Shown here: piece after piece, positions 1,866 to 59,187 of the stretch
Layout: the number at the start of each line of letters is the position of its first letter
Numbering within the stretch: position 1 is the stretch's first letter
Origin: an uncultured Alphaproteobacteria bacterium
Lineage (GTDB): Bacteria; Pseudomonadota; Alphaproteobacteria; Rs-D84
Reading direction: 5' to 3'
Length of the DNA: 64,000 nt
Assembly: GCA_949082785.1 (NCBI GenBank)
Contig: CARVLU010000003.1
Location: 9,133 to 73,132, forward strand
The notes under the pieces: generated by a model
What the model was told of the DNA's origin: nothing
Database searches by the model: none
Seen by the model: the letters and a program-made list of their open reading frames with translations, nothing else
Program-made: the position numbers and the translations under genes

Positions 1866-1940
1866 ACTGCGTGGTGTATTCTGACATATCTTTTTTCAAA
1901 TTGCAAGTGTTATTTTATTGACAATTTTTATGGTTTGGAT

Positions 1941-4331
1941 ATGCTGATTTTAATGAAAAATATCCCAGACAAAAATCTTGGCAGTGCCCGAAAATCCCGC
2001 GAATTATTGATGGCGGGGTCGTATAATACACTGTTCGATAACCTGGTGTTTAATCCCCCGGCGCGATTTTTTGTCTATGCCGCACCCGATTCTGTTCATG
2101 ACATTTTTCACAGGACTTTTGACGCACTGAATAATGCCGCCACATCCATTAACCGCCATGACGCGTGGGCGTTCGACGATGTCGCCCGCATTTTGATGGG
2201 CGCCGCGAACGACATGCAGATGGACACGGCGATTAATTTCCTGGTGTCACGGTGCGCCGTGCCGGAAACGCATTTATATATCCGGCGCGCAAATGCGCCG
2301 GGGCAATTGTTCCCGACCAACCGAATTTATCTGTCGCGATACGCCATGTGCCGGGTGGCGAATTACTGGCTGGCCACAAAAATGCGGGCGGACATCGACA
2401 TGGGCCGACCCGTATTGACCGCGACGCACGCGGCGCATGACAACGGGCGCCACAAAATCCAAACGGAAATGCAATTGGCATTTGCGGCGTATTATTTCGC
2501 GTTCCCCGAAACCGATTGCGATGAAATCGCCCGCATCACATGGGACTGGGTCCGGGCAAAACCGGTTAAGCGTGCCTGGGAATCAGCGCAGAAAAATCTG
2601 ACCAATGAAATGCGGCGCATTTACGGCCGTGAATTTTCGTTTCATTTATTCGAAGAGTTTAAGCAAGAACACATTTTCAACCCGCTGTTTCGTGCACCGG
2701 GCGCCCCGTCCATTCGGGACCAGTATGCGGAAATGCTGACCACGCGGGGATTCAAACCAGACACCGGCGGCGCGCGCGGCGGATGGCGGCGCGGCCGACA
2801 AACCGCCCCCAAATACCCTGGGGGATACTTTGCGCCGCATGCGCTGTTTCTGGCGGCATGGATAACCAATCAATTTTGCGAATTCATATCCAATGAACCG
2901 GCCCCCGACCGCAACCGTACCAAATGGTTTGAATTGCGGGCAAAAAATTTCATGGCAACAATCGGCCAGGGATTGGCGGCCATGCGCCGTGATAACTCCG
3001 CGCTGCGCACGGCGCAACTGTGGGCCGCGCGCCATCACAGCGACGCGTTAAAATCCATTAATGAAATCAAACATGGCCGCGGCCACCGTAAAACCGATGA
3101 CGCAACCGGCCAAGTCATGCACGACAACCCGTCCGCGATGGAATTTTTCCGGACAAAGCATTTATTTTCCGATGACGACATGTGGTGCCTGAAATACCGG
3201 CAAAATGCCCAGCGGCGATTGGTTCAATTGCACGACGCATACCGGGCGGGACCGACATCGGAACTGGCACAAAAAATCGCAGACACAGAAACGCAAATCC
3301 GCGCGGAAAACATCACGCTGTACGATATGGATTTGGGGGGCTTTGTTGATGTGCCACACATTTTAAATGCCGATGGGCAATTTGTACCCCGCCCCGTTGT
3401 GACGCCCGTCATGGGGACACCGCATCAAACGATGACAACAGAACCAGCGGCGACGCCCGTCCACACACCACAACCCGCAATCGCGCCACATCAATACACC
3501 ATTGATTTTGATGCGGCGCCATGGGCCCCGTTTGTTATTAAATCCCCATCTAAAATCCCCGATGGCGCGCCGTTTATTCAATCAACAAATCCAACCACCG
3601 GCGCCCCGTACGTCATGTATGACACGCACGGTCAGTTTGAATCCGTCAACCCATTGCGGCCGGATTTCACGGTGCGCGACCGAATGGGGAACCCAAAAAA
3701 CAACGATGTGAATTTTGAAATGGGCAATTTCCTGTTGGAAAGCGACACCATGCCCCCCGCCGCCCAATTGGCCCAGGCGCACCGTCTGGTGGCACTGGGG
3801 GTGATTAATAAAATCGTGTGGTCTGGCAGCAAATCGTATCACATGCGCTGTACCGTGCGGCCGGCCCCACAAACGCGCGCACAGCGCAAATGGCTGTTCG
3901 CACACATTATCAATACGTATAACATCCAGGGCATCGACCCGGTATGCTGGAACAACGGGCGGTTGATGCGGCGCGCGGGGGCGACACGCCTGGTGGATGG
4001 GCGGGCGGTGACGCAAACACTGATACATCAATCTGATGCCGTTTTGGACATGGATTGGCGCCCATTATATGACGCCCACACGGCAATCCAGAAACACATG
4101 TTCGAAACCACCCACGAATTTTCACCCAAAATAAACGACCGCGTGCGCGCCATGTTGGCCCAGTGGCACGACGGCAATCGCCACAATTTATTAAACATGG
4201 GAATAATCCCCATGATGCACCACGCCGGTTGGACGGATAATCAAATTCGCGCCGCACTGATATCGGACGGCGGAAATCCGGGGCTGAACCGGACAATTGA
4301 AAAATATATCAACAATATTCGTGGGCGGTAA
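1941..4331 (+). CDS. large hypothetical protein (~797 aa) with central Pro/Thr-rich linker
   Basis: 2.4-kb uninterrupted frame with host-like composition; ORF-track frame begins inside tRNA-Gly so start placed at first ATG (1941) after the tRNA; linker PVVTPVMGTPHQTMTTEPAATPVHTPQPAIAPHQ; no recognisable domain. Confidence 0.7.
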   Translation: MLILMKNIPDKNLGSARKSRELLMAGSYNTLFDNLVFNPPARFFVYAAPDSVHDIFHRTFDALNNAATSINRHDAWAFDDVARILMGAANDMQMDTAINFLVSRCAVPETHLYIRRANAPGQLFPTNRIYLSRYAMCRVANYWLATKMRADIDMGRPVLTATHAAHDNGRHKIQTEMQLAFAAYYFAFPETDCDEIARITWDWVRAKPVKRAWESAQKNLTNEMRRIYGREFSFHLFEEFKQEHIFNPLFRAPGAPSIRDQYAEMLTTRGFKPDTGGARGGWRRGRQTAPKYPGGYFAPHALFLAAWITNQFCEFISNEPAPDRNRTKWFELRAKNFMATIGQGLAAMRRDNSALRTAQLWAARHHSDALKSINEIKHGRGHRKTDDATGQVMHDNPSAMEFFRTKHLFSDDDMWCLKYRQNAQRRLVQLHDAYRAGPTSELAQKIADTETQIRAENITLYDMDLGGFVDVPHILNADGQFVPRPVVTPVMGTPHQTMTTEPAATPVHTPQPAIAPHQYTIDFDAAPWAPFVIKSPSKIPDGAPFIQSTNPTTGAPYVMYDTHGQFESVNPLRPDFTVRDRMGNPKNNDVNFEMGNFLLESDTMPPAAQLAQAHRLVALGVINKIVWSGSKSYHMRCTVRPAPQTRAQRKWLFAHIINTYNIQGIDPVCWNNGRLMRRAGATRLVDGRAVTQTLIHQSDAVLDMDWRPLYDAHTAIQKHMFETTHEFSPKINDRVRAMLAQWHDGNRHNLLNMGIIPMMHHAGWTDNQIRAALISDGGNPGLNRTIEKYINNIRGR

Positions 4332-4486: not shown

Positions 4487-4999
4487 ATGCCGAATCTAAA
4501 CGTCGGATTGCTTTCGACAATGTGGGGGCAGAATGCGACGGCCGTGAGTGCCGCCGATCAGGCATGCGCCAACTGCTATTGCTGTACCAATGGGACACAG
4601 TTCGCCTGCAAGGGCACATGTTATTACGACGAAAGGTGCTGTATGGGTATGATATGCCCGGAGGGACAGATTTGGGATTCCGAACAAGGAAAATGTGTTG
4701 ACGAACCCGTCGTAAAATTCTGTATGAGTGGCACCTATCCCACAGCAACCAGCTGTAAACCATGCCCGGAAACCACAGATTTTTCATCCACAAACGCCAG
4801 ATGCAGTGCATCATCCCCAGGTGGAACCATAGGTGGCAGTGCTGGCGACACAAGTATTTCACTGGGCATAGAATCGTGTTACATGCCCAAGGAATACCTA
4901 TCCCTAGAAGGCGGCGGCACATGCGAATACACCGATGTTTCTGGAACATTTGAATTTACCCGGAACTGTAACTATTCCGCACGGATTGAACTGGAATAA
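4487..4999 (+). CDS. small cysteine-rich protein, paralogous family member (C-terminal C-P-C ... CY ... GTFEFT ... CNY module)
   Basis: 170-aa ORF, 20 Cys; C-terminal module shared with 13737, 22498, 27585, 48723, 49016 genes; followed by strong terminator. Confidence 0.75.
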   Translation: MPNLNVGLLSTMWGQNATAVSAADQACANCYCCTNGTQFACKGTCYYDERCCMGMICPEGQIWDSEQGKCVDEPVVKFCMSGTYPTATSCKPCPETTDFSSTNARCSASSPGGTIGGSAGDTSISLGIESCYMPKEYLSLEGGGTCEYTDVSGTFEFTRNCNYSARIELE

Positions 5000-13736: not shown

Positions 13737-14192
13737 ATGAAAAAGCTGACAACATGTATTGCACTGGCCGCGATTTGCAGCCCCGCGCTGGGTATCGTCA
13801 CCAATCCCGACCTGTTGGCATGTTTATGCGATGATGCACTGACACCATCGGTCCCCCAGGGTTCATATTGTCCGGACGGAACATACTGTCCATATAAATG
13901 TCCGGGCTGCACCAATATCAATTGGACATCATCATCAACCGGGTATGAATCACGCATAAGGGCCACATGCGATATTTATTCAGGCAACTGTAACAAAACC
14001 ACCGAATATCGTTGCGCAGCCGGATATTACGGCAATACGTTAAATGGCAATTCCGGATGTTCGGCATGCCCCAGGGGCGGCACGTCCCCCGCCGGCAGCA
14101 AGTCCATAACATCATGCTATCTGCCCAATGGGACATCTGGGACCGACAGCACCGGCAGTTATGTTTATACATCAGATTGCTATTACAATTAA
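13737..14192 (+). CDS. secreted cysteine-rich protein, family member (signal peptide MKKLTTCIALAAICSPALG)
   Basis: 151 aa, 18 Cys; YRCAAGYYGN...SGCSACP...SCYLP...GSYVYTSDCYY shared module. Confidence 0.8.
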   Translation: MKKLTTCIALAAICSPALGIVTNPDLLACLCDDALTPSVPQGSYCPDGTYCPYKCPGCTNINWTSSSTGYESRIRATCDIYSGNCNKTTEYRCAAGYYGNTLNGNSGCSACPRGGTSPAGSKSITSCYLPNGTSGTDSTGSYVYTSDCYYN

Positions 14193-14447: not shown

Positions 14448-14640
14448 CAAAACCACCTGTGGATAAAGGTGGTTGGAGATTAGCAATCTATTAACAGTAA
14501 ATAGTGTCGATATTCAATATATTCTCGACTCTCCAACCCTGGTTGGATTTTTCATCTTGAAGCAAGACGACTGTTAAGGAGTGGCTAAACTCCACGATGT
14601 GAAATCCACATCGCATTTTAATTATATATAAATATTTTCT
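14448..14640 (-). ncRNA. orphan copy E of type-1b leader element (possible sRNA or decayed gene leader)
   Basis: contains hairpin with conserved loop GAATATATTGAATA, CCAACC/GGTTGGAG/CTCCAACC alternative pairing and terminator CCACCTTTATCCACAGGTGGTTTT; no cys-rich CDS downstream. Confidence 0.45.
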
Positions 14641-14707
14641 TATTTTCCAGTAAATTATAAAAAAAGAAAGGGTTAATCCCCCTTCTTTTCTACTGGTTTT
14701 TCTACAA

Positions 14708-14905
14708 AACAAAACCACCAGAAAATTCAGGTGGTTGGAGATTAGCAACTATTAACAGTAATAGTGCGATATTCAATATATTTTCGACTCTCCAACCATG
14801 TTGGACTTTTACATCATGTCAAAAGACATAACGACTGTTAATAGGTTGCTAAACCCACATCGGCAACACGCCGACACGTAATATATTATATATGTTTTTT
14901 TTGCG
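14708..14905 (-). ncRNA. orphan copy F of type-1b leader element with own TATAAT promoter
   Basis: tandem duplicate of copy E (about 85% identity), conserved loop GAAAATATATTGAATA, terminator CCACCTGAATTTTCTGGTGGTTTT. Confidence 0.45.
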
Positions 14906-15057
14906 AATTCCAGGGATTTTTTATGGACGAATAAAGGCGATTGGGGTCTAAGAACTATCGTTCGATGAACATAGCACGATTTATTTGAATCAAAGATTCT
15001 TATTCATCGCACCCCAACCACATTTATTATACACATTTTTTCTGACAATTGTACGAA

Positions 15058-15545
15058 TTTTCTGGATTACCGGGCGCTTACTCTCCTTTGTCATTGCGAA
15101 CGAAGTGAAGCAATCCAGTCAAATAATGAACTATTCCTTGCTATTCCTGGATTGCCGCAGTCGTTTCACTCCCTCGCAATGACAGGGGTGTTTAATTGCT
15201 CAAAACCGGGCGCTTACTCTCCTTTGTCATTGCGAACGAAGTGAAGCAATCCAGTAAATAGTGAACTATTCCTTGCTATTCCTGGATTGCCACGCGGCGA
15301 CGTTCCGTCTTGCTCGCAATGACAGGGGTGTTTAATTGCTCAAAACCGGACACTTACTCTACTTTGTCATTGCGAACGAAGTGAAGCAATCCAGTGAATA
15401 TGAACCTTGCCGCTTTCCTGGATTGCCACGCGGCGACGTTCCGTCTTGCTCGCAATGACAATGGGGATGCAGCGCCTGGCTTTGTGTCTTGCCTGCTTCA
15501 TCACACTTGTTCATTGCGAGAGAAGCGACACAATCCAGTTAATAA
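15058..15545. repeat. three and a half tandem ~140-bp repeats, each containing an inverted pair TTGTCATTGCGAACGAAGTGAAGCAATCCAG / CTGGATTGCC...CGCAATGACA
   Basis: direct inspection; related units at 43738-43839 and 44336-44545. Confidence 0.85.
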
Positions 15546-15574
15546 AAGTGCCCGCCGAACGGCGGGACACAAAA

Positions 15575-15604
15575 CAAAAAATCCCGCCGGTTGGCGGGAT
15601 TTTT
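15575..15604. terminator. bidirectional rho-independent terminator
   Basis: AAAAAATCCCGCCGGTTGGCGGGATTTTT just downstream of rlpA stop. Confidence 0.85.
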
Positions 15605-22270: not shown

Positions 22271-22484
22271 TGAATCCACGGTTGTGGGTTCGGGACTTCG
22301 AAAATCCCTTATCTGGTCGACATATTGTGTATGTCGTTATTTTGTGCGCGGCGCCTTGCCACGCCCCCCGACATTGGTCGGGTTGTTGCAGTTATACAAC
22401 AGGGGCATCGCCCCAAAGGCTGCAAGGTCATTATCAGATATGATTTTTCGAACTTCCCGACCACCAGATTCTGGTGGTTTTCTT
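22271..22484 (+). promoter_or_regulatory. type-1a structured leader RNA (copy B) ending in terminator GACCACCAGATTCTGGTGGTTTT
   Basis: homologous to 13498-13705 including GGGTTCGGGACTTCGAAAATCCC, GGTCGGGTTGTTGCAGTTATACAACAGG, GCAAGGTCATT, GATTTTTCGAACTTCCCGACCACC. Confidence 0.6.
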
Positions 22485-22497
22485 TGATAACCAAAGG

Positions 22498-23109
22498 ATG
22501 GAAGAAGTGAAGAAAATCAAACAAATAGGTAAAGTCTGGATAATGCTGACGCTGGTCATTATCCCCGGCGTGGCACGGGCGCTGTTGGTGCCACCGGTGG
22601 GCGAATGCGTGGGCGGCACATGCCCCAGCGATGGGCAATATATTGATGGCATCATGTACGGATGCGGGCGTGCAACGGAATGTTACTGCGTCAACAGTGA
22701 CGGCGAAGGAATCAATGTTCCCTGTGGATGCTTTGGCGACGCGGATTGCAAAACCAGCGGTTACGGATGTATTAACGGCCAATGCGCAAAATGCCGCAGT
22801 TGTACAAATTGTACCAGCAGCAACACCTGGGATTCTGTCGCCACCGGGTATCAACGCCGGACCACAAAAACATGTGGGTGTGACGGGACATGCAACACGT
22901 CATATTCTTACCGATGCGCACCCGGATATTTCGGCAACAGTTATAACGGCACATCGGGATGCACGCGTTGCCCGACCGACGGGGGCGTTACCGGGACATC
23001 TGTGGCGGGAACAACCGCACGAACGGGATGCTATGTCGGGGCAAACACGACGGGCCGCGATAATTCCGGGGCGTTTGAATTTACCGGAAATTCTTATTAT
23101 TGTGACTAA
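22498..23109 (+). CDS. secreted cysteine-rich protein, family member (signal peptide MEEVKKIKQIGKVWIMLTLVIIPGVARA)
   Basis: AAGGA SD 5 nt upstream; 28 Cys; CTNCTSSNTWDSVATGYQRR...YRCAPGYFGN...SGCTRCP...GAFEFTGNSYYCD shared module. Confidence 0.8.
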   Translation: MEEVKKIKQIGKVWIMLTLVIIPGVARALLVPPVGECVGGTCPSDGQYIDGIMYGCGRATECYCVNSDGEGINVPCGCFGDADCKTSGYGCINGQCAKCRSCTNCTSSNTWDSVATGYQRRTTKTCGCDGTCNTSYSYRCAPGYFGNSYNGTSGCTRCPTDGGVTGTSVAGTTARTGCYVGANTTGRDNSGAFEFTGNSYYCD

Positions 23110-24722: not shown

Positions 24723-25148
24723 TTAATCACCCAAATTGGAAAATAAAATTGCTTGGAAATCGGTGGATGCCGCTGCAAAAGTTGCACAGTTCCGCGCACA
24801 AGATTGAGCACAATTATACGCCGATTCCCTATCTTCCAAATACACCCAAGACGATACAGCGGGTGTAACAATTTTACACCAACAATACCGATTATTCTCA
24901 CTGGTGGTACTGATCTTAACTGTATCCGATATGGCACCTATTCTGTTGCTCTTTTGGCTTCCACAAAACATAACGCCATTTATCTGAATCTTATTACAAC
25001 TAAATGTCCAGTTAGATTGGCCCAATGCCACTGCCTGATTATACGAACAATTCGCACTGGGCGTTAATTTAACACATTTTGTTGCGGCATGTACGGATGA
25101 CGTTGCCGCCATTAATCCCGCAGTAAAACACAACAAATAAATTTTCAT
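24723..25148 (-). CDS. small secreted cysteine-containing protein
   Basis: signal peptide MKIYLLCFTAGLMAATSSVHA, 10 Cys; GGGGGGA SD upstream; 3-nt gap to downstream gene. Confidence 0.55.
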   Translation of the reverse strand: MKIYLLCFTAGLMAATSSVHAATKCVKLTPSANCSYNQAVALGQSNWTFSCNKIQINGVMFCGSQKSNRIGAISDTVKISTTSENNRYCWCKIVTPAVSSWVYLEDRESAYNCAQSCARNCATFAAASTDFQAILFSNLGD

Positions 25149-25214
25149 TTTGTTCGCAATCCCCCCATTTTTTGCCGCAATTAACCGGTGGTTTAGATTA
25201 GGCAATTTTTCCGT

Positions 25215-25243
25215 TTGACACACGCCCAGAAATTGTATATTTT
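25215..25243 (+). promoter_or_regulatory. orphan consensus promoter TTGACA-17-TATATT on + strand (no CDS downstream before terminator at 25372)
   Basis: perfect -35 with 17-nt spacer; would give a ~150-nt transcript ending at the 25372-25397 terminator. Confidence 0.3.
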
Positions 25244-27584: not shown

Positions 27585-28061
27585 ATGCCGAATCCAATCG
27601 TTGGTTTTTGTGTCATGCAAATACCCCAAACAACGCGGTCGGCATGGGCCGCCAATAACTCATGCAGCACAACCATATGTACAAATTCCACCCAGTCCGG
27701 TGTGCCATATGGCCATAATTGCAGAACCAGCCAAACTGTCTGTGACGGGAACATAGGATATCGTTCATGCGTAACATGTGACCGTGCCGTATCCACCCCG
27801 GACCAGATGATAGGCGCCGAATTGTCCGGTTGCAGTGGGGTGTTCATGACATATTCAACATGCAAATGCTTAAAAGGCTATTATTCCAGTGCCGAAAAGT
27901 GTGTTCGATGCCCGGCGGATGCCGATGGCAATTATGGCACCACCGCGGCGGCAGGCGACACAACCCGACCAACAGACTGTTACCTGACGCGCGCCACAGA
28001 ATACCAGGATGACAGCGGGTCATATTCTTACACCCAAAACTGTTATTACAGCAACGGTTAG
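27585..28061 (+). CDS. cysteine-rich protein, family member (no classical signal peptide)
   Basis: 158 aa, 16 Cys; CKCLKGYYSSAEKCVRCP...DCYL...GSYSYTQNCYYSNG shared C-terminal module. Confidence 0.75.
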   Translation: MPNPIVGFCVMQIPQTTRSAWAANNSCSTTICTNSTQSGVPYGHNCRTSQTVCDGNIGYRSCVTCDRAVSTPDQMIGAELSGCSGVFMTYSTCKCLKGYYSSAEKCVRCPADADGNYGTTAAAGDTTRPTDCYLTRATEYQDDSGSYSYTQNCYYSNG

Positions 28062-36734: not shown

Positions 36735-37826
36735 ATGTTACGCAAAAACCTTTTTTCCTTGTTACTGGTGGGTGGTGTCGCAATGGCACATCCCCACATC
36801 GCCAATGCCTGTACCGGCATTACATTAACCCCAAAAGATAAATCTGTCGTCGTTGCCCGCACCATCGAATGGTCCGGCAGTGAAATGAAATCAGATTACG
36901 TCATCGTCCCCCAGGGATACACACAAAAATCCTTTGTCCCGGGCGGGGAAAAAGACGGTCTGGAATTTTCCGCACGATACGGATATGTCGGCCTGGCGGT
37001 GGTCGAACCCGAATACATTGTCGAAGGCTTGAACGAAGCCGGCCTGTCTGCGGGTCTGTTTTATTTCCCGGGATACGGTCAATACGAAGCCTATGACCCG
37101 GCCGACAATGCGACCACCATTTCCGATTTCCAATTGGTGTCGTGGATGCTGTCCCGGTTTTCCACCATCGACCAAATCCAAGATGCCATCCGCGATGTCC
37201 GCGTTGTCGGAATTGACCCGCGGGCATCAACCGTGCATTGGCGCATCGCCGACATGACCGGCCGCCAGGTGGTTCTGGAAATCGTCGATGGCGTTCCGCA
37301 TTTCTATGAAAACACGCTGGGCGTGTTAACCAACGCCCCCGGGTTCGAATGGCAGATGACCAATTTAAATAACTATGTCAATCTGACACCTGGCACCGCG
37401 GGGCCGACCGATATACGCAATCTGCGGATGAAATCATTTGGCGGCGGCAGTGGCATGTTGGGACTGCCGGGGGACGTAACCCCGCCGTCGCGCTTTGTCC
37501 GCGCCGCGTTCTATGCTGCAACCGCCATCCCCCAGGACACCGCATACGGCGCCGTGATGCAGGCATTTCACATCCTGAACAACTTTGACGTGCCGTTGGG
37601 CACCCAATACCCCATTGACCAGGTGCCCACCCCAATGCCCAGCGCGACGCAATTTACATCCGCAACCGATATGACAAACCAGATTTTGTATTATCGCACA
37701 ATGTACAACAGCGTTATTCGCGCCATCGATTTGTCTAAAATCAATTTCAGCGATGTTAAATACCAGGTGCACCCCATGGACGCCATCCGGGAACAAACGG
37801 TCATTAATATCCAACCGGACGCATAA
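36735..37826 (+). CDS. choloylglycine hydrolase / penicillin V acylase family Ntn-hydrolase (paralogue 1)
   Basis: signal peptide then nucleophile Cys (ANA-CTGITL); ~65% identical to 39416..40498. Confidence 0.8.
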   Translation: MLRKNLFSLLLVGGVAMAHPHIANACTGITLTPKDKSVVVARTIEWSGSEMKSDYVIVPQGYTQKSFVPGGEKDGLEFSARYGYVGLAVVEPEYIVEGLNEAGLSAGLFYFPGYGQYEAYDPADNATTISDFQLVSWMLSRFSTIDQIQDAIRDVRVVGIDPRASTVHWRIADMTGRQVVLEIVDGVPHFYENTLGVLTNAPGFEWQMTNLNNYVNLTPGTAGPTDIRNLRMKSFGGGSGMLGLPGDVTPPSRFVRAAFYAATAIPQDTAYGAVMQAFHILNNFDVPLGTQYPIDQVPTPMPSATQFTSATDMTNQILYYRTMYNSVIRAIDLSKINFSDVKYQVHPMDAIREQTVINIQPDA

Positions 37827-39287: not shown

Positions 39288-39361
39288 TGGTTGGGGCAGC
39301 TGGATTCGAACCAACACTGACGGAGTCAGAGTCCGGAGTTCTACCGTTAAACTATGCCCCA
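39288..39361 (-). tRNA. tRNA-Gln (anticodon CUG)
   Basis: acceptor TGGGGCA/TGCCCCA, anticodon loop CTCTGAC, T-loop TTCGAAT, encoded CCA. Confidence 0.8.
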
Positions 39362-39415: not shown

Positions 39416-40498
39416 TTAATCGATTGTGACGTCGATTACGGTTTCCTGTTTTTGCATATCCAATGGATGCGACTGAAACGCAACGGTTTCAAAATCAATA
39501 CGCGACAGATCAATCGCCCGCACGGCGCGACTGTACATCGTATGATAATAGATAACCCGATTGGTAATATCCGTGGCCACCGTCCACTGGGTCGCCGACG
39601 GCATGTCATCCGGCACGCCGCCAACCGGGAATTGCACACCGACCGGCACATCGAAATTGTTCAGGATATGGAACGCCTGTAATACGGTTTGATACCCGCC
39701 GTCCTGGGGCACGGCGCAATTTTGCAAAAAAGCCGCCCGAACAAACCGCGACGGCGGCGTCATATCCCCCGGCAATCCGTGCAGGCCGCTGCCACTGCCG
39801 AACGCGGTCATCCGCAGGTTGCGAATAGTTGTCGGCCCGGCGGTGCCTGGATGCAGATTGACATAGTTATTCAGATTTGTTGTCATCCACGGGAATCCCG
39901 GCGCGTTGGTCAAAACACCGATTTCATTTTCATAAAATTGCGGCACACCATCGATGATTTCCAGGACCGCCTGGCGGCCGCCGGGTTCGATAATACGCCA
40001 ATGGACCGTTGTTGTTCGCGGGTCGGCGTTGATAATGCGGATGTTTTTGATGGCATCTTTGACCTGGTCAATGGTGGAAAACTGGGACAGTATCCATGAC
40101 ACCAACTGAAAATCGGCCAGTGTTTCATCACGGTATTGCGCATCATAATCCACATACTTGCCATATGCCGGGAAATAGAACAGCGCCGCGGCCAGGCCCG
40201 CTTCGTTAACGCCATCGATTACGAATTCAGGCTGTTCCACCCCCAGCCCCGCAAACCCGTATCGCGACGTGAATTCCAATCCGCCCGCCGTCCCATCGGG
40301 CAAGATTGAACGCACGGTCCGTCCCCGCGGAACGATGACGTACATGTTATCCAGTTCTTCGCGGGACCAATCCATTGTCCGCGCCACGACCAGTGAATTA
40401 TTTTTGGACCGTAACGTTATCCCGGTACAGGCATCCGCCCGCCCCATCACGCCGCACACGGCCGCAACCGTCATAAATACAACAGATAAATATTTCAT
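39416..40498 (-). CDS. choloylglycine hydrolase / penicillin V acylase family Ntn-hydrolase (paralogue 2)
   Basis: MKYLSVVFMTVAAVCGVMGRADA-CTGITL; inverted relative to paralogue 1. Confidence 0.8.
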   Translation of the reverse strand: MKYLSVVFMTVAAVCGVMGRADACTGITLRSKNNSLVVARTMDWSREELDNMYVIVPRGRTVRSILPDGTAGGLEFTSRYGFAGLGVEQPEFVIDGVNEAGLAAALFYFPAYGKYVDYDAQYRDETLADFQLVSWILSQFSTIDQVKDAIKNIRIINADPRTTTVHWRIIEPGGRQAVLEIIDGVPQFYENEIGVLTNAPGFPWMTTNLNNYVNLHPGTAGPTTIRNLRMTAFGSGSGLHGLPGDMTPPSRFVRAAFLQNCAVPQDGGYQTVLQAFHILNNFDVPVGVQFPVGGVPDDMPSATQWTVATDITNRVIYYHTMYSRAVRAIDLSRIDFETVAFQSHPLDMQKQETVIDVTID

Positions 40499-52389: not shown

Positions 52390-53202
52390 TTATTTTTCTT
52401 CCAACCCTTTCAGAACGATGTCTTTTAAATCGTTGGGCATCATGCCGGTGGTCGAATAGCCACAATCGACGTGATGAACTTCGCCCGTGACCGCCGACGA
52501 CAAATTGCTGAACAAATACAGCGCCGCGCCCGACACGTCGTCCAACGTCATGTTACGACGCAACGGTGTCTGGTCCGCGTTCAGGCGCAACATCGCCTTG
52601 AACCCACCAACGCCCGACGACGCCAATGTCATAATCGGCCCCGCGCTGATGGCGTTAACGCGAATACCGTCACGGCCCAGGTCAGATGCCAGATAACGCA
52701 CACTGCTATCCAGGGCGGATTTCGCAACACCCATCACGTTGTAATTCGGTACGGATTTTTCCCCGCCGAAATATGTCAGTGTAACAATGCTGCCGCCGTC
52801 TTTCATCAATTTGGATGCGCGGCGTGTCAAATCGACCAACGAATACACAGAAATGTCCATGGTATTCTTGAAATTATCGCGCGAAGTGTCGGCATAACGG
52901 CCGGACAATTCATTTTTATCCGAAAACGCAATCGCGTGCAGCATGCCGTCCAGATGGCCCCATTCTTTTTCAATGGCGGCAAACAAAGCATCCATCTGTT
53001 CGTCGTTCTGCACATTGCATTCCTGAACGAATTTTGCACCGATGGATTCCGCCAGCGGGCGCACACGCTTTTCCAGGGCGGGCATCGCGTACGGCATTGC
53101 GATTTCGGCGCCTTCTTCGTGGGCGCGCTTTGCAATGGCCCAGGCCATAGACCAATCGTTGGCCACGCCTGTAATTAAAATCTTTTTTCCTTTTAATAAC
53201 AT
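52390..53202 (-). CDS. fabI: enoyl-[acyl-carrier-protein] reductase (NADH) FabI
   Basis: GVANDWSMAW N-terminal Rossmann motif, catalytic Y/K spacing of SDR FabI. Confidence 0.95.
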   Translation of the reverse strand: MLLKGKKILITGVANDWSMAWAIAKRAHEEGAEIAMPYAMPALEKRVRPLAESIGAKFVQECNVQNDEQMDALFAAIEKEWGHLDGMLHAIAFSDKNELSGRYADTSRDNFKNTMDISVYSLVDLTRRASKLMKDGGSIVTLTYFGGEKSVPNYNVMGVAKSALDSSVRYLASDLGRDGIRVNAISAGPIMTLASSGVGGFKAMLRLNADQTPLRRNMTLDDVSGAALYLFSNLSSAVTGEVHHVDCGYSTTGMMPNDLKDIVLKGLEEK

Positions 53203-53321: not shown

Positions 53322-53397
53322 TCGGGCATAGTTCAGTCGGTAGAACAACGGACTGTTAATCCGTATGTCGCTGGTTCGAGTCCAGCTGCCCGAGCCA
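53322..53397 (+). tRNA. tRNA-Asn (anticodon GTT)
   Basis: acceptor TCGGGCA/TGCCCGA, anticodon loop CTGTTAA, T-loop TTCGAGT, encoded CCA. Confidence 0.9.
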
Positions 53398-53430
53398 AGA
53401 TTTACAAACCGCCCCACGGCGGTTTTTGTT
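53391..53430. repeat. direct repeat DR-L (tRNA-Asn 3' end + terminator) matching 55041-55086
   Basis: CGAGCCAAGATTTACAAACCG identical in both copies, then CCCCACGGCGGTTTTT. Confidence 0.8.
53405..53428 (+). terminator. rho-independent terminator after tRNA-Asn
   Basis: AACCGCCCCACGGCGGTTTTT. Confidence 0.85.
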
Positions 53431-53581
53431 ATGGTGCGGCTGGCCCACACCCGGTTCGATAATTTCTGAATTAAAATCGCGATTTTTTGGCCATTATCGA
53501 ACAATCCAAATAAAAAAAGGTTGGATTACAAACCCTTTCCACGCGTTTGAGTTCAACTCAAATTTTTCCATTACTTATTGT

Positions 53582-53989
53582 CTATGGAAGCTTTTTTAAT
53601 ATATCCACCAACATAATAAGCCATCGTTGTAATCTTTGTTTACACGATTTTTTATCTTGTGTTAAATACGGATTGATTTGGCTTGATGAAAAGTTCCACG
53701 AGTCTTGAAATGATGGCTGATGGTTAAAAACATATGGATAAAAAGATGTTTCGTAAAATGAATTTTCTGTTATAAGAAATTCATTTAAATATGTCGTTCG
53801 ATAGGCAGTATCAACAATTTCTAATGCAGAATTAGCATATTTCTTCCAAGACTCCAAAAGTTCTGTATCAAGAAAATCACTGGACATCAAATTAATGCCT
53901 TCACATAAAACATCAAACAATCCACTTTTAGCAGCCTGTTTCATGTCCCCAAAATCAAACATAGGTTTTATCGCCATTAATCTCTCCAT
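53582..53989 (-). CDS. islet hypothetical protein (soluble, 135 aa)
   Basis: AT-rich ORF, last gene of 3-gene minus-strand operon; start overlaps upstream stop. Confidence 0.5.
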   Translation of the reverse strand: MERLMAIKPMFDFGDMKQAAKSGLFDVLCEGINLMSSDFLDTELLESWKKYANSALEIVDTAYRTTYLNEFLITENSFYETSFYPYVFNHQPSFQDSWNFSSSQINPYLTQDKKSCKQRLQRWLIMLVDILKKLP

Positions 53990-54414
53990 TATACCTTTTG
54001 GCTCATTTGTGCCCGTTTTTCTTTAAGAATTTTTTCGTAATTTTGCTTTGAGTCAGATAGTTTATCGTTCGCAAACTCTATCCCTCCAAGTTTACAATTG
54101 ACTGTTTTTACAAATGGCTTGAAAATCATAATTAACCAAACAATAAAAATTAATGAATGACCATTAAATGGTATAAAAGTCATTGCCTCGGACCAATGCA
54201 TATAAAGATATATACTCCCTGTCACGAACCAAAATGTATGCCAAATACTGCGTCTGCTATTAACATATGGTAATATGAATATACAAACTGTAAAAAACAA
54301 TCTGCACAACCATCGCAAAAAACATAATGCGCCAATCTTGATTTTTTGAGAAAAATTTTTTATTCCATCTAGCATATCTGATTCATTGTAGAACAAAATT
54401 AATATAAAATGCAA
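53989..54414 (-). CDS. islet hypothetical polytopic membrane protein (141 aa)
   Basis: 3-4 hydrophobic helices, AT-rich. Confidence 0.5.
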   Translation of the reverse strand: MHFILILFYNESDMLDGIKNFSQKIKIGALCFLRWLCRLFFTVCIFILPYVNSRRSIWHTFWFVTGSIYLYMHWSEAMTFIPFNGHSLIFIVWLIMIFKPFVKTVNCKLGGIEFANDKLSDSKQNYEKILKEKRAQMSQKV

Positions 54415-54473
54415 GTTGGCAATTTTCTCGACAAACTTTACAGTTATTGAATATAATTGTCGTATTTATGTCC

Positions 54474-54905
54474 TTATATTAAGGCATTTTCCTCATTATG
54501 AACTGTTTTTTGTTCTTGCAATTTTCTAAATTCAAGTTCGCTTTTTGGAAATTTTATGGAATGTCTTTTTTGTTCGTATTCATTAATCGCCTCTGCAATA
54601 GCATCTATATATTCTTCTGCATTCTTCTTATAGTGTTTTATTAACTGGCAATTTTTAAACACCTGTCTTAATTCATTATCCTTATATATCGTCGTATCAA
54701 TATCACTTTCAATACGTCTTACTATGCTCCACCAACTTTTAAACATACTTACAGGATGTGGATGAAGTGCTGCATCAATCAATACAGAAAACAAGTTATC
54801 TCGTTCCTTTCTCTCTCGTTCAGCCTTGTCATTTCCGATACTATAACCTATCAAGCCACCAATAATTAAAGCAACAAAGATACTACCAGTAAGAATTCCT
54901 TCCAT
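54474..54905 (-). CDS. islet hypothetical protein with N-terminal TM and charged coiled region (143 aa)
   Basis: GSIFVALIIGGLIGYSIG TM then ERERKERD; AT-rich. Confidence 0.5.
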   Translation of the reverse strand: MEGILTGSIFVALIIGGLIGYSIGNDKAERERKERDNLFSVLIDAALHPHPVSMFKSWWSIVRRIESDIDTTIYKDNELRQVFKNCQLIKHYKKNAEEYIDAIAEAINEYEQKRHSIKFPKSELEFRKLQEQKTVHNEENALI

Positions 54906-55040
54906 TTTTCATCCTTTTCTGACATTGTAATTCGCTCCTATATGGAATTCAAGCACACAATTGCTTCTTTAACAAACTGATTTGTCTTGCACATTCAAGA
55001 AATTCATTTGGATTTTTTGCTCGATAACTGCAAGCTGAGC

Positions 55041-55086
55041 CGAGCCAAGATTTACAAACCGTCCCCCCACGGCGGTTTTTTTGTTG
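55041..55086. repeat. direct repeat DR-R (copy of tRNA-Asn 3' end + terminator hairpin)
   Basis: GAGCCGAGCCAAGATTTACAAACCGTCCCCCCACGGCGGTTTTTTT. Confidence 0.8.
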
Positions 55087-55219
55087 TGCCCATTCGGCGT
55101 GCCGACTGCACAGTTTGGCAACATCCGCGAATATTTCCCGGGCGCGGCGACGACTGACCGCTTCAATAATTATACGTCATATGCTATAATCCGTTACAGT
55201 TAACCAAAGGAGAATCAGG

Positions 55220-55567
55220 ATGTACAAATTATTCGTGGCCTTGGCAATGTTGGCGACGCTGTCCGCATGCAAGCAGCAGGAAACCAAAACACTGCATCTG
55301 GTGTGCAAAACAACCCCATCAGAAACAGCCCCCAGCGTTCGCCCCCAATACGACGTAACAGTTAATCTGTTGGCCGATGGTGCCACATTAACCATCGATG
55401 GCCAAACATACGATTTAATCCAAGAATATGATGCGCCGGTTTCATTTTACCGACACGACCCATGGTATAATTTCCAAATCGGCAATCGAAAGTATGGGAA
55501 ATACGCCCTGGGGATTCCCACGAACGAAAACTTTGCGCGATATATCACATGCGAAGAAGTCAAATAA
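55220..55567 (+). CDS. hypothetical lipoprotein
   Basis: AGGAGAA SD; lipobox LSAC. Confidence 0.6.
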   Translation: MYKLFVALAMLATLSACKQQETKTLHLVCKTTPSETAPSVRPQYDVTVNLLADGATLTIDGQTYDLIQEYDAPVSFYRHDPWYNFQIGNRKYGKYALGIPTNENFARYITCEEVK

Positions 55568-55616: not shown

Positions 55617-56255
55617 TTACAAACCAAATCTGTACGCCAGCCCCAGGTATAATTGCGTGGCATCAACCTTGGACACGCCGCGGGCATGTTCCACACGACC
55701 AAAATTGATGTATTTAAACCCAACATCCAAATCAATACGCGAATTCAGGTGAAACAACACACCGACCATCACCTGGTACGACAAATCAAAGGCATTATCC
55801 AAATCCCCGTCAATTTCGCCCCAAATCCCGGTTAAACCCAATCCGGCCGCCGCATACGGCGCCACCGCATTGTCAAAATCCCATAACAGATAGGCATTCA
55901 GCATATTCGCCCAAATATCATATTCAAAATTGGTATCGTATTTGGTGTACTGGGCCCCCATGTACATTGTTTCGTATTCCACCCGCAGAAAATTGGTTAA
56001 ATTATTGCCAACCGTGGTACCGAAACCGAAATTATCTTTCTTGTACTTTTCCTTGTGCCCATTGGACAGGTTATATGAATACGCGGCATGTTCGTTTTTA
56101 TAGACACGCACGCCGGTGTAATTGTCGCGCGTGGGCGACCCGCAATCACAGACCGGGCATTCTGGATACACAGTCACATCATAATCGATATATTCATTCG
56201 CCATGGCCCCCGTGGCGGTCATGCACATTAAAAACAAAGCCAGAAATTTTTTCAT
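55617..56255 (-). CDS. outer membrane beta-barrel protein (OmpA-like/OMP_b-brl family)
   Basis: signal peptide MKKFLALFLMCMTATGAMA, alternating amphipathic strands, C-terminal LGLAYRFGL. Confidence 0.65.
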   Translation of the reverse strand: MKKFLALFLMCMTATGAMANEYIDYDVTVYPECPVCDCGSPTRDNYTGVRVYKNEHAAYSYNLSNGHKEKYKKDNFGFGTTVGNNLTNFLRVEYETMYMGAQYTKYDTNFEYDIWANMLNAYLLWDFDNAVAPYAAAGLGLTGIWGEIDGDLDNAFDLSYQVMVGVLFHLNSRIDLDVGFKYINFGRVEHARGVSKVDATQLYLGLAYRFGL

Positions 56256-56336
56256 CTGTTCCCTCAATCATTATCATTTAACGATAATATATGAATGAAT
56301 TCAAGTTAAAAAGTATTTGCAAATTTCAGGGGGATT

Positions 56337-58161: not shown

Positions 58162-59187
58162 TTATTCTTTCACGCGTTGCAGGGCGCCAATAATCTGCCC
58201 CAACAGACGTGCCTTTTTCGTGCCGACGGGGGCGCGACCCTGAACCTGTTTCGCGGCCAGGTTAAATGATACACGCTTGTTATTTTTTAACTTTGTAATG
58301 CGGGGTTCGCTGTACCCGGTTTTGCGCGATGTGGCGGCAACGCGCCCCCGGGACCCGTTCAATGCGGTTTGGACCGCGTCAATTTCCCCCTGGGACATTT
58401 CGGGTTTACGAACGGGGCGCACGGGGACAATATGAAATTTTCGATTCCAGATATACAGTTGATCGCACGTCAGTTCATATTTGGGCGCAATTGTCATAAA
58501 TGCAACGCGTGCGGTGCGGCTGTGCGCTGGCAATTCGTCATAGACCCCACGCGCGTCACGCAAAATTTCCCGTTGCTGGGCCGGGGTGAACGCGGTGTAT
58601 TGGGGCGCCGTGCGACCTTCATAAATTTGATACTGTTTATTCCATCGGCCAATGGTGTATTGTGGCACATTGAAATGCCGGGATGCGTCCGCCACGCCGT
58701 GGTCACGGGCATGCATCAAAATGGCGACAATGTCATCGTGACCGTATTCGCGCAACGGGGAATAAACATGATACTTTTTATTCCAACGGATAATCGTACT
58801 GGGGTTCACACCAAACTGGTTGGCGGCCGCCATCGGCCCAAAATCGCGCGCATATTCCAGTATTGCCATCTTTTGCGCGGATGTGAACGACGGCACCTTT
58901 GGGGCATAGACATGCGCATCTTGGTTCCACAGTTTAATGATGGCCGCCGACACACCAAATTTTTTCGTTGTTGCCCGAACGCCATTATCCCGGACAAAGG
59001 CCAAAATTTTCGCGCGTTGCCCCGGGGTGTATTCCGCCGTCTGGGGCGTGTATATTTTCAGGCGCCGGTTCCACAATCCCAACGCGTTGCGTGACACGCC
59101 AAAGTGACGCGATGCCGCCACCACCCCATGGTCGCGGGCATAGGTCAGAATTTCAATTTTTTTATCTTCTTTGAACGGGGCCGTCAT
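58162..59187 (-). CDS. protein composed of five tandem transposase-N-terminal-type HTH repeats (HTH_Tnp_1/HTH_28-like)
   Basis: repeats KKIEILTYARDHGVVAASRHFGVSRNALGLWNRRLKIY / RAKILAFVRDNGVRATTKKFGVSAAIIKLWNQDAHVY / KMAILEYARDFGPMAAANQFGVNPSTIIRWNKKYHVY / IVAILMHARDHGVADASRHFNVPQYTIGRWNKQYQIY / ... Confidence 0.6.
   Translation of the reverse strand: MTAPFKEDKKIEILTYARDHGVVAASRHFGVSRNALGLWNRRLKIYTPQTAEYTPGQRAKILAFVRDNGVRATTKKFGVSAAIIKLWNQDAHVYAPKVPSFTSAQKMAILEYARDFGPMAAANQFGVNPSTIIRWNKKYHVYSPLREYGHDDIVAILMHARDHGVADASRHFNVPQYTIGRWNKQYQIYEGRTAPQYTAFTPAQQREILRDARGVYDELPAHSRTARVAFMTIAPKYELTCDQLYIWNRKFHIVPVRPVRKPEMSQGEIDAVQTALNGSRGRVAATSRKTGYSEPRITKLKNNKRVSFNLAAKQVQGRAPVGTKKARLLGQIIGALQRVKE

What the first reader, a model, noticed from the sequence alone, without database searches (positions are those of the whole stretch)
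53391..55086. AT-rich 1.7-kb islet at tRNA-Asn with att-like direct repeats and a three-gene operon of unknown function
The last ~21 nt of tRNA-Asn plus its terminator hairpin (CGAGCCAAGATTTACAAACCG...CCCCACGGCGGTTTTT) are repeated 1.65 kb downstream, at 55041-55086. That is the signature of site-specific integration into the tRNA 3' end.

The intervening DNA is much more AT-rich than its flanks. It carries three overlapping or adjacent minus-strand ORFs: 54905-54474, 54414-53989 and 53989-53582. They encode a TM plus charged helix protein, a polytopic membrane protein and a soluble 135-aa protein. None has recognisable motifs, and no integrase remains.

Compact membrane-protein-containing cargo at tRNA islets often encodes defence, abortive-infection or toxin-immunity functions, so this is a candidate novel module.
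Basis: seen in the sequence. Interest (0 to 1): 0.7.

Follow-up and report, generated by a model that had tools for sequence, protein, structure and literature searches.

The report
Integrase-less cassette in a defence hotspot
A 1.65-kb piece of foreign, AT-rich DNA sits next to a tRNA-Asn gene in an uncultured bacterium, at a spot where related strains carry known anti-phage genes, and it holds two uncharacterised membrane-protein modules that are reasonable but unproven candidates for new phage-defence genes.

Summary
A 47-nt direct repeat (22 nt exact) flanks a 29-33% GC tract in a 51% GC window, and the tract carries three minus-strand genes and no integrase. One detail is wrong: only the last 8 nt of tRNA-Asn are duplicated, not about 21. 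The rest of the repeat is a 14-nt spacer plus the terminator hairpin.

The gap between tRNA-Asn/fabI and an outer-membrane-protein gene is a strain-variable hotspot. Contigs with identical FabI carry a CoiA-like cassette there instead. Relatives carry T5orf172 (PADLOC PDC-S57), a PD-T4-1-like gene, or a CapRel-type toxSAS (PDC-S33).

The "three-gene operon" is two separable modules. Gene A encodes a single-pass membrane protein that precedes the CapRel gene in a sister islet flanked by the same repeat. B and C (a 3-TM protein and a four-helix bundle) are translationally coupled. The pair recurs in distant low-GC contigs beside defence candidates and recombinases.

All three genes are under purifying selection (dN/dS 0.12-0.29). 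None matches Pfam, NCBIfam, PADLOC, PHROGs, PDB, phage or plasmid records.

My best reading is a CIME-like, att-flanked cassette carrying candidate abortive-infection or toxin-antitoxin-like defence genes. Function and mobility are inferred, not shown.

The parts
53322..53397 (+). tRNA-Asn (GTT), the anchor of the hotspot
   Evidence: ARAGORN; Rfam RF00005, 74.5 bits.
53390..53436 (+). Proximal repeat copy (attL-like core): last 8 nt of the tRNA, a 14-nt spacer, and the terminator hairpin 53406-53425
   Evidence: In a strain 99.8% identical over the region (L002/L130), this copy alone differs, by 4 clustered substitutions, and it then equals the islet-free haplotype L128.
53454..53502 (.). Conserved leader inside the islet, with the inverted repeat GTTCGATAAT-N29-ATTATCGAAC. 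Candidate arm-type or accessory protein binding site.
   Evidence: Alignment A1 shows it conserved in the window, L009 and L003, and degenerate in L128. TCGATAAY sites at 53456-53463 (+) and 53493-53500 (-).
53582..53989 (-). Gene C: 135-aa (or 131-aa) cytosolic four-helix-bundle protein with a disordered insert
53989..54414 (-). Gene B: small polytopic (about 3 TM) membrane protein with a charged C-terminal tail. Probable start is the ATG at 54375. Its stop overlaps the start of C (TAATG).
   Evidence: dN/dS 0.20 and hydropathy. Clear homologues lie directly upstream of C-like genes in L213, L214, L215 and L223.
54474..54905 (-). Gene A: 143-aa single-pass membrane protein. It has a Gly-rich N-terminal TM (GxxxG-like), a charged juxtamembrane helix and a helical cytosolic domain.
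   Evidence: dN/dS 0.29 against A' in L003. A' lies 15 nt upstream of a CapRel-type gene. No family hit.
54924..54952 (-). Promoter-like site upstream of A (TTGAAT-17-TACAAT)
   Evidence: consensus match only. This upstream region is conserved at 78% with L003.
55021..55034 (+). Conserved islet end motif TCGATAACTGCAAG, 5 nt before the distal core (candidate P-arm site)
   Evidence: Also present before repeat copies in L008 and L009. It is the third TCGATAAY site near a core.
55040..55086 (+). Distal repeat copy (attR-like core) with the hairpin at 55056-55078
55083..55108 (+). Flank after the distal copy (GTTGTGCCCATTCGGCGTGCCGACTG). It matches the flank that directly follows the tRNA terminator in the islet-free haplotype.
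   Evidence: 30-31 of 40 matches to L128/L131, against 23-24 of 40 for the proximal flank, including an exact 13-mer GGCGTGCCGACTG.
55220..55567 (+). 115-aa lipoprotein gene, part of the same hotspot haplotype but outside the repeat-bounded islet
   Evidence: The exact protein always co-occurs with A and C in 22 long contigs. It is absent from the L128/L131 haplotype.
52390..53202 (-). fabI, conserved left border of the hotspot
55617..56267 (-). Outer-membrane beta-barrel protein gene, conserved right border of the hotspot
   Evidence: 97% nucleotide identity to L128 from 55616 onward.

Best explanation
The feature is a 1.65-kb, horizontally acquired cassette with no integrase. It lies in a strain-variable defence-gene hotspot between tRNA-Asn/fabI and an outer-membrane-protein gene of an uncultured Pseudomonadota lineage.

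How it got there (inferred). A recombinase supplied in trans recombined the element's own copy of the tRNA-Asn 3' end and terminator with the chromosomal copy. That left attL-like and attR-like 47-nt repeats, with TCGATAA motifs just inside each. The result is a CIME-like unit that can stack in tandem. Between strains, whole hotspot haplotypes are then probably exchanged by homologous recombination in the conserved flanks.

What it carries (shown). There are two separable modules.
- Gene A encodes a single-pass membrane protein. It belongs to the conserved distal end of this islet family and precedes a CapRel-type toxSAS in a sister islet.
- B and C are a translationally coupled pair: a roughly 3-TM membrane protein and a cytosolic four-helix bundle. 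The pair is conserved across distant low-GC bacteria.

What it does (inferred from context and architecture only). B-C most likely acts as an abortive-infection or toxin-antitoxin-like defence pair. C would hold the membrane protein B inactive until an infection cue, after which B compromises the membrane. A is probably an independent membrane-acting accessory or defence gene.

The confidence of 0.5 is for this composite. Taken separately: foreign cassette in a variable defence hotspot with two separable modules, about 0.85; site-specific origin of the repeats, about 0.55; a defence function for B-C, about 0.4.
For: The repeat is real and non-random. The GC drop is the largest in the window. 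Distant B-C homologues come from contigs of 26-37% GC, which fits a low-GC donor.

Hotspot:
- Contigs encoding identical FabI carry either A-B-C plus the lipoprotein (about 16 contigs) or Zn-ribbon/90 aa/238 aa/CoiA_N-like cargo (about 5 contigs) between the same flanks.
- L135 (FabI 94% identical) carries T5orf172 plus a CoiA_N-like gene at the same tRNA-Asn.
- L003 carries A' plus a 373-aa RelA_SpoT protein between the same kind of repeats.

Defence content of the alternative cargo:
- PDC-S33, E 2e-94; PDC-S57, E 2.5e-64 and 1.4e-25; PD-T4-1-like, E 6.8e-16.
- The RelA_SpoT protein matches 7ZTB/9ERV nearly end to end, E 4.5e-30. 7ZTB is the CapRelSJ46 structure (PMC9712102).

Att-like architecture:
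- The conserved leader with its inverted repeat, and the TCGATAACTGCAAG end motif, recur in four islets.
- Three of the nine TCGATAAY sites in 64 kb lie within about 110 nt of the two cores.
- L009 shows an islet end followed by a core and then the next islet.
- The flank after the distal core matches the flank after the tRNA terminator in the islet-free haplotype.
- All differences between two strains 99.8% identical over the region cluster in the proximal core.

Genes are real: dN/dS is 0.29, 0.20 and 0.12.

B-C is a module:
- The stop of B overlaps the start of C.
- B homologues lie directly upstream of C homologues in L213, L214, L215 and L223, and a TM-plus-charged-tail protein takes that position in L216-219 and L222.
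- L008 keeps B'-C' without A.

Context of the distant pairs: PDC-S02 (4e-81), PDC-S01 (6.5e-150), PDC-S72 (5.6e-84), an OLD/AriA-like ATPase (4.7e-29), HsdR, a large serine recombinase and integrase fragments.
Against: - No integrase, attP, circular junction or truly empty site was found. The CoiA-type haplotypes (L128, L131, L135) have only one core copy, so their cargo is not visibly att-flanked.
- Three scans of viral contigs for the att sequences found nothing.
- The defence role rests on guilt by association only. A, B and C hit nothing in PADLOC, including all 21 C-family members.
- The C fold is a generic helical bundle with no catalytic or DNA-binding signature.
- The contexts of distant homologues are few, and several are contigs under 2 kb.
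- The flank match supporting a clean insertion covers only about 33 nt; beyond it the haplotypes are unrelated.
Confidence: 0.5

Rival explanations
1. No site-specific integration took place. The repeat is a relic or a local duplication of the tRNA terminator region, and the hotspot turns over purely by homologous recombination in the conserved fabI/tRNA and OMP/umuDC flanks after DNA uptake. This is what is proposed for core defence hotspots that lack mobility genes.
For: - No integrase in the islet or, by a crude test, in the window.
- The alternative haplotypes L128, L131 and L135 have no second core copy.
- The flanks are 95-97% identical between haplotypes, giving ample homology.
- Defence hotspots with no identifiable means of mobilisation are documented (PMC10121019; PMC10250203).
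Against: - The distal copy includes the tRNA's CCGAGCCA end and spacer, where no tRNA exists.
- The same arrangement, with conserved internal end motifs, bounds islets with different cargo in other lineages and occurs in tandem.
- TCGATAAY sites cluster at both cores.
Confidence: 0.25
2. B-C (and perhaps A) is a plain addiction or toxin-antitoxin module. It stabilises the islet, or was stabilised by selection on the element, and has no anti-phage role.
For: Two small, translationally coupled genes, one of them a small membrane protein, carried on mobile DNA. Strong purifying selection, tightest on C.
Against: No match to any known toxin or antitoxin family. C has no recognisable DNA-binding domain. 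The pair recurs next to defence candidates rather than on plasmids; tblastn against 72,556 plasmids found nothing.
Confidence: 0.15
3. The genes are leftovers of a decayed prophage, satellite or ICE. They would be morons such as superinfection-exclusion or lysis-control membrane proteins, and the islet is simply the stump left after deletion of the integrase and the rest of the element.
For: Att-like repeats without an integrase are what decay of an integrated element produces (the CIME route; PMC5704250). Small membrane proteins are typical morons (general knowledge).
Against: - A, B and C have no relatives in 50,697 phage records.
- The A, B and C families have no relatives in IMG/VR, and BFVD holds no structural match for the C model.
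- No phage-like gene occurs in any of the hotspot variants.
Confidence: 0.12
4. The genes are orphan immunity genes against a membrane-acting bacteriocin or contact-dependent toxin.
For: Small AT-rich ORFan membrane proteins fit the profile. A two-partner-secretion fragment lies in the wider hotspot of L003.
Against: No toxin gene or toxin C-terminal cassette lies next to A-B-C in the window or next to the distant B-C pairs. The TPS fragment is outside the repeat-bounded islet.
Confidence: 0.07

Closest known systems
CIMEs (cis-mobilizable elements) and tandem accretion at tRNA or gene 3' ends, as described for ICESt1-related islands and IMEs (PMC5704250)
   Same: Flanked by attL-like and attR-like repeats that include the 3' end of the target gene. 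No integration or transfer genes. A tandem arrangement is seen in a relative (L009).
   Different: Very small (1.65 kb). The repeat is mostly the tRNA terminator, with only 8 nt of tRNA. No cognate ICE, IME or integrase has been identified, and cis-mobilisation is untested.
Chromosomal defence hotspots and defence islands, including tRNA-linked ones (E. coli pan-genome hotspots, PMC10121019; P. aeruginosa core defence hotspots, PMC10250203)
   Same: Conserved core flanks. Alternative cargo in conspecific strains. Known or candidate defence genes among the alternatives. Some occupants have no identifiable mobility genes.
   Different: The host is an uncultured lineage. The A-B-C occupant itself matches no known or candidate defence family.
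CapRelSJ46-type fused toxSAS defence (PMC9712102; PDB 7ZTB)
   Same: A homologue (PDC-S33) occupies the position of B-C in the sister islet L003, directly downstream of the A homologue and between the same repeats.
   Different: The window islet has no RelA/SpoT domain. A has no described role with CapRel, which works as a single protein.
Abortive-infection or exclusion pairs that combine a small polytopic membrane protein with a soluble partner, e.g. lambda RexA/RexB (from general knowledge)
   Same: Architecture only: a small multi-TM protein of about 130-140 aa, a cytosolic partner, co-transcription and carriage on mobile DNA.
   Different: No sequence or profile similarity (PADLOC and Pfam negative). 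The gene order and partner size differ. No functional data.
tRNA-Asn-targeting islands of Enterobacteriaceae, such as the Yersinia high-pathogenicity island and ICEKp family (from general knowledge)
   Same: tRNA-Asn 3' end used as the insertion point, with direct repeats.
   Different: Those islands are tens of kb, encode a P4-type integrase and duplicate about 17 nt of the tRNA itself.

Membership tests
tRNA-targeting integrative island (tyrosine-integrase type) | Direct repeats that include the 3' part of the tRNA flank the element | tested here: met
   47-nt repeat, 22 nt exact, including the last 8 nt of tRNA-Asn.
tRNA-targeting integrative island (tyrosine-integrase type) | Integrase gene within the element | tested here: not met
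   The islet holds only A, B and C. None has a recombinase domain. No HxLRHxxA box in the window (crude).
tRNA-targeting integrative island (tyrosine-integrase type) | Presence/absence polymorphism with a precise empty site | tested here: inconclusive
   The L128/L131 haplotype lacks the islet, and its post-terminator flank matches the window's post-distal-core flank for about 33 nt. The DNA beyond differs, so no clean empty site was seen. Every contig read that encodes the exact lipoprotein also has A and C.
tRNA-targeting integrative island (tyrosine-integrase type) | Excision to a circular form carrying attP | not testable with these tools
   This needs raw reads or PCR. Scans of viral contigs for attP-like or attR-like sequences found nothing.
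CIME (cis-mobilizable element) | Retains attL and attR but has lost integration and transfer genes | tested here: met
   Two core copies with conserved internal arms. No mobility genes. Definition from PMC5704250.
CIME (cis-mobilizable element) | A related ICE or IME with the same att specificity exists and can mobilise it | tested here: not met
   No integrase-bearing element was found at tRNA-Asn in any related locus examined. My one genome-collection scan was wasted on a pattern that was too short.
Defence island / defence hotspot | Variable cargo between conserved core genes in closely related genomes | tested here: met
   At least four cargo types lie between fabI/tRNA-Asn and the OMP gene.
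Defence island / defence hotspot | Known defence genes among the occupants | tested here: met
   PDC-S33/CapRel homologue, PDC-S57, PD-T4-1-like.
Defence island / defence hotspot | The occupant in question protects against phage | not testable with these tools
   Requires expression and phage challenge.
Known or candidate defence systems (PADLOC-DB 2.0) | Profile match of A, B or C to a system component | tested here: not met
   No hit at E<=1 for A, B or C. No consistent hit for the 21 C-family members.
Type II toxin-antitoxin pair | Two small, adjacent, co-translated genes | tested here: met
   The B stop and C start overlap (TAATG). The same tight coupling is seen in six other loci.
Type II toxin-antitoxin pair | Recognisable toxin family, and an antitoxin with a DNA-binding domain | tested here: not met
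   No Pfam, NCBIfam or PDB match. C is a four-helix bundle with no HTH or RHH.
Integron gene cassette | attC imperfect palindrome at the cassette end and an intI/attI platform | tested here: not met
   The repeat is a direct duplication of the tRNA end and terminator. No intI was seen in the window (crude test).

The most novel reading that the evidence does not exclude
B-C founds a previously undescribed two-gene defence family in which a small 3-TM membrane effector is gated by a four-helix-bundle partner. In addition, the islet represents a class of miniature, integrase-less, att-flanked cassettes. These cassettes share one end (gene A, the end motif and the core) and swap their defence payload (B-C versus CapRel) at a tRNA terminator. 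That would be an integron-like exchange unit for immunity genes, served by a recombinase encoded elsewhere.
Probability: 0.3. Interest if true: 0.65.

Novelty: new variant of a known kind. Interest (0 to 1): 0.45.

Why it matters
If B-C, and possibly A, protect against phage, they add a compact membrane-acting system from an uncultured gut-type lineage. Current catalogues (Pfam, NCBIfam, PADLOC, PHROGs, PDB, phage and plasmid records) do not contain it.

The islet family also gives a tidy natural experiment. The same ends and the same first gene carry either a CapRel toxSAS or the B-C pair, which points to small att-flanked cassettes as units of defence-gene exchange.

If it is not defensive, it remains a routine example of a decayed tRNA-adjacent islet.

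Tried and rejected
- Genome-collection scan with a 16-nt pattern. This was my error; a pattern of 22 nt or more was needed.
- Neisseriaceae origin, suggested by the Opa-like OMP and the TPS fragment. Rejected: no DNA uptake sequence of any dialect is present. The FabI cluster is labelled only 'Pseudomonadota bacterium'.
- Searches of viral contigs for the end motif plus core, the tRNA end plus core, and a degenerate core: 0 hits each.
- Viral-contig searches with the A, B and C family profiles: no relatives.
- tblastn of A, B and C against phage and plasmid records: no match.
- Pfam, NCBIfam, PADLOC and PHROGs for A, B and C: only sub-threshold noise. The weak alpha-xenorhabdolysin hit covers just the TM segment of A. 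Family-wide scans gave nothing consistent.
- Profiles against PDB sequences: nothing.
- Fold search of the C model: generic helical bundles in PDB and nothing in BFVD. The AFDB library was unavailable.
- A related to B or C: hhalign probability below 1%.
- The FabI-based metagenome scan gave only one extra relative that keeps tRNA-Asn next to fabI (L135). L133, L134, L137 and L138 have different synteny.
- The lipoprotein look-up, meant to find an empty site, showed only the occupied haplotype.
- Rfam: nothing but the tRNA.
- The leader inverted repeat as an RNA element. The 3' UTR fold is not unusual (z = -1.7), and a terminator-like hairpin lies between C and the inverted repeat, so a DNA-level role seems more likely.
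Full report
**1. The observation**

ARAGORN and Rfam place tRNA-Asn(GTT) at 53322-53397 on the + strand. The repeat finder returns one long direct repeat, 53390-53436 versus 55040-55086, with 1650 nt from start to start.

The first 22 nt, CCGAGCCAAGATTTACAAACCG, are identical. The same G+C-rich hairpin and T-run follow, with a loop indel (CCCCAC versus TCCCCCCAC). That 22-mer occurs exactly twice in the window even with three mismatches allowed, and never in 100 shuffles.

Reading the tRNA end (TGCCCGA-G-CCA) against the repeat shows that only CCGAGCCA, 8 nt, is tRNA. The next 14 nt are spacer and the rest is the terminator.

GC falls to 0.29-0.34 across 53550-54900, against 0.50-0.56 outside. 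This is the longest tract below 40% GC in the 64 kb.

I call them A (54905-54474), B (54414-53989) and C (53989-53582).

**2. The genes are real, and they form two modules**

Each protein has only one other 90%-identity cluster among 5.8 billion. Against those relatives, dN/dS is 0.29 (A), 0.20 (B) and 0.12 (C), so all three are under purifying selection.

- A has one Gly-rich N-terminal TM segment, a strongly charged juxtamembrane stretch and a helical domain.
- B has about three TM segments and a Lys/Glu-rich tail.
- C has no TM segment.

The stop of B overlaps the start of C (TAATG). A is 59 nt upstream of the TTG start of B, or 98 nt upstream of the more likely ATG at 54375. That ATG aligns with the starts of homologues and was the call made in 31 contigs.

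In relatives the genes separate:
- L003/L004 have A' (66-70% identical) followed 15 nt later by a 373-aa RelA_SpoT protein, with no B or C.
- L008 has B'-C' plus a 38-nt stump of A, then unrelated DNA carrying a divergent lipoprotein gene.

So "three-gene operon" overstates the linkage. A is one unit and B-C is another.

**3. The site is a variable hotspot that holds defence genes**

The window is 100% identical to a contig of a MAG, GCA_949093815.1. Its FabI cluster is labelled only "Pseudomonadota bacterium". No Neisseriaceae uptake sequence is present.

Looking up contigs that encode the identical FabI gave two haplotypes between the same flanks (95-97% identical). About 16 contigs carry the lipoprotein plus A-B-C. 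About 5 contigs (L128, L131) instead carry a Zn-ribbon protein, a 90-aa ORF, a 238-aa ORF and a 362-aa CoiA_N-like protein.

A relative with 94% FabI identity (L135) carries a T5orf172 protein and a CoiA_N-like protein next to the same tRNA.

In L003, beyond the A'/RelA_SpoT islet, lie a T5orf172 gene, a 372-aa gene and a TPS fragment.

PADLOC profiles identify several of these:

| Protein | PADLOC match | E-value |
|---|---|---|
| L003 RelA_SpoT, 373 aa | PDC-S33, full length | 2e-94 |
| L003 T5orf172, 217 aa | PDC-S57 | 2.5e-64 |
| L135 T5orf172, 209 aa | PDC-S57 | 1.4e-25 |
| L003 372-aa protein | PD-T4-1, partial | 6.8e-16 |

The RelA_SpoT protein also matches PDB 7ZTB/9ERV almost end to end (E 4.5e-30). 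7ZTB is the CapRelSJ46 structure, a fused toxin-antitoxin that senses phage capsid protein and pyrophosphorylates tRNAs (PMC9712102).

The gap between tRNA-Asn and the OMP gene therefore behaves like the chromosomal defence hotspots described in E. coli and P. aeruginosa, some of which have no identifiable means of mobilisation (PMC10121019; PMC10250203).

**4. The repeat looks like att sites, but the recombinase is missing**

The islets that contain A and/or B-C (window, L003, L008, L009) share more than the core.

- Downstream of a core copy lies a leader of about 100 nt containing GTTCGATAAT-N29-ATTATCGAAC (window 53454-53502).
- Just before the distal core lies TCGATAACTGCAAG (55021-55034). 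L003 has a looser version of this motif.
- TCGATAAY occurs nine times in 64 kb, and three of those sites lie within about 110 nt of the two cores.

This is the layout expected for arm-type sites on the element side of attL and attR.

In L009 the core copy next to C' is preceded by another islet end (cacTCGATAACTGCAAGccgac), not by the tRNA. The units can therefore sit in tandem. That is the accretion pattern described for CIMEs, elements that keep attL and attR but have lost their integration genes (PMC5704250).

In the islet-free haplotype, the roughly 33 nt after the tRNA terminator (GTTATGTATATTTGGCGTGCCGACTG...) match the window's flank after the distal core (30-31 of 40). They match the flank after the proximal core less well (23-24 of 40). 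This is what an insertion between the terminator and that flank predicts.

A strain 99.8% identical over the 2.1-kb region (L002/L130) differs only by four clustered substitutions in the proximal core. There it equals the islet-free sequence, AGAATTCAAAACCGCTCCAC. This suggests either a crossover near GGCGGTTTTT or gene conversion between the two copies.

Evidence against site-specific integration:
- There is no integrase in the islet, in any hotspot variant, or (by a crude motif test) in the window.
- The CoiA-type haplotypes have a single core.
- No attP-like sequence turned up in 2.9 million viral contigs.
- I found no clean empty site. All 22 long contigs encoding the exact lipoprotein also carry A and C.

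My one genome-collection scan, which could have found an integrase-bearing parent element, was wasted on a 16-nt pattern.

I conclude that site-specific origin in trans is the better-supported reading. It is not demonstrated, and turnover by homologous recombination alone remains a live alternative.

**5. What B-C and A might do**

A full HMMER pass with C over 1.84 billion representatives found only 20 relatives. All are 119-147 aa and 29-51% identical.

In every locus I could inspect, the C-like gene is immediately preceded (overlapping, or within 3 nt) by a small membrane ORF.
- In L213, L214, L215 and L223 this ORF is a clear B homologue. The invariant core reads W..WF....YLY..W..AM.F.PFNG..LIF.VW..MI...F.K, followed by a charged tail.
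- In L216-219 and L222 it is a TM-plus-charged-tail protein.

B-C is thus a conserved, translationally coupled pair.

These loci are low in GC (26-37%), which fits the islet's composition. They place the pair next to the following:

| Neighbour | Evidence |
|---|---|
| PDC-S02, Mrr-like | E 4e-81 |
| HNH protein | Pfam hit (weak) |
| PDC-S01 | E 6.5e-150 |
| PDC-S72, Fic | E 5.6e-84 |
| OLD/AriA-like ATPase | E 4.7e-29 |
| HsdR | Pfam hits |
| Large serine recombinase | Pfam hits |
| Integrase fragments | Pfam hit |

No curated library, PDB sequence, phage, plasmid or IMG/VR contig contains a relative of A, B or C. A is unrelated to B or C.

From architecture and context alone, I rank the possibilities as follows:
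1. An abortive-infection or toxin-antitoxin-like pair, in which the cytosolic bundle C restrains the membrane protein B.
2. A plain addiction module.
3. A prophage-type exclusion gene.
4. A bacteriocin immunity gene.

A sits at the conserved end of the islet family and precedes either B-C or CapRel. It is most simply an independent membrane-acting gene of the cassette backbone. A partnership with the downstream payload cannot be excluded.

**6. Comparison, novelty and score**

The islet works like a CIME lodged in a defence hotspot. It meets the sequence-level criteria: att-like repeats and no mobility genes. It fails the criterion of an identified cognate element.

It is not a member of any known defence, toxin-antitoxin or integron family by any test I could run.

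It is a real, foreign and polymorphic feature whose cargo families are uncatalogued. However, small ORFan modules in defence islands are common, the function is unproven, and the host is uncultured. I rate it "new variant of a known kind", with interest 0.45. I give about 0.3 probability to the more novel reading: a new membrane-acting defence pair carried on swap-payload mini-cassettes.

Noticed in passing
L003 8001-9542 (also L004-L007): In a sister islet between the same kind of tRNA-Asn-derived repeats, an A homologue lies 15 nt upstream of a 373-aa CapRel-type toxSAS (PADLOC PDC-S33; matches PDB 7ZTB). Whether A-like proteins regularly accompany CapRel genes is unknown.
   Followed up: partly
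window, many sites, e.g. 14500-15600: Short dispersed repeats CTCGCAATGACAAAG and GGCAATCCAGGA (5-9 copies each) resemble the palindromic elements of Rickettsia-like genomes. The low-GC patch at 14501-15250 is non-coding and appears to contain them.
   Followed up: no
window 4487-4999 (+), 13737-14192 (+), 22474-23109 (+), 24723-25223 (-), 27585-28061 (+): At least four, perhaps five, paralogous small Cys-rich secreted proteins. Four share a C-terminal motif (...C..GY[YF]G...C..CP...T.CY...G.[YF].[YF]T..CYY); the fifth (24723-25223) is Cys-rich with a signal-like N-terminus but lacks the motif. The three tested have no Pfam match.
   Followed up: partly
window 36735-37826 (+) and 39416-40498 (-): Two paralogous choloylglycine-hydrolase-family genes lie close to tRNA-Gln (39288-39361). 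The first scores CBAH PF02275 at E 3.9e-63; the second is inferred from its similar N-terminal sequence. This hints at a gut-associated host.
   Followed up: partly
window 54428-54457 (+): The best promoter-like match in the region (TCGACA-18-TATAAT, 11 of 12) lies in the A-B spacer on the strand antisense to A. It is not conserved in L008, so it is probably an AT-rich chance match.
   Followed up: partly
window 53516-53545: The stretch just after the stop of C (GGATTACAAACCCTTTCCACGCG) resembles the repeat core (75% over 20 nt, repeat family D4). It overlaps a terminator-like hairpin on the minus strand. It may be a decayed third core copy, or chance.
   Followed up: no
window 1938-4328 (+): A 797-aa ORF beside tRNA-Gly (1789-1865) with no Pfam match.
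   Followed up: no
L216-L219 6472-8301: A 609-aa ORF (split into 390 + 222 aa in some contigs) always follows the distant C-like gene. It has no Pfam or PADLOC match and may be a third component in that branch. The block ends with PDC-S01 and a large serine recombinase.
   Followed up: partly
L223 694-1140: Downstream of another distant B-C pair is a membrane protein with two TM segments and a coiled region. It is loosely A-like in architecture, with no detectable homology.
   Followed up: no
window 58162-59187 (-): A 341-aa protein made of repeated helix-turn-helix units sits next to umuDC. It is conserved in all hotspot haplotypes and relatives. Its role is unknown.
   Followed up: no
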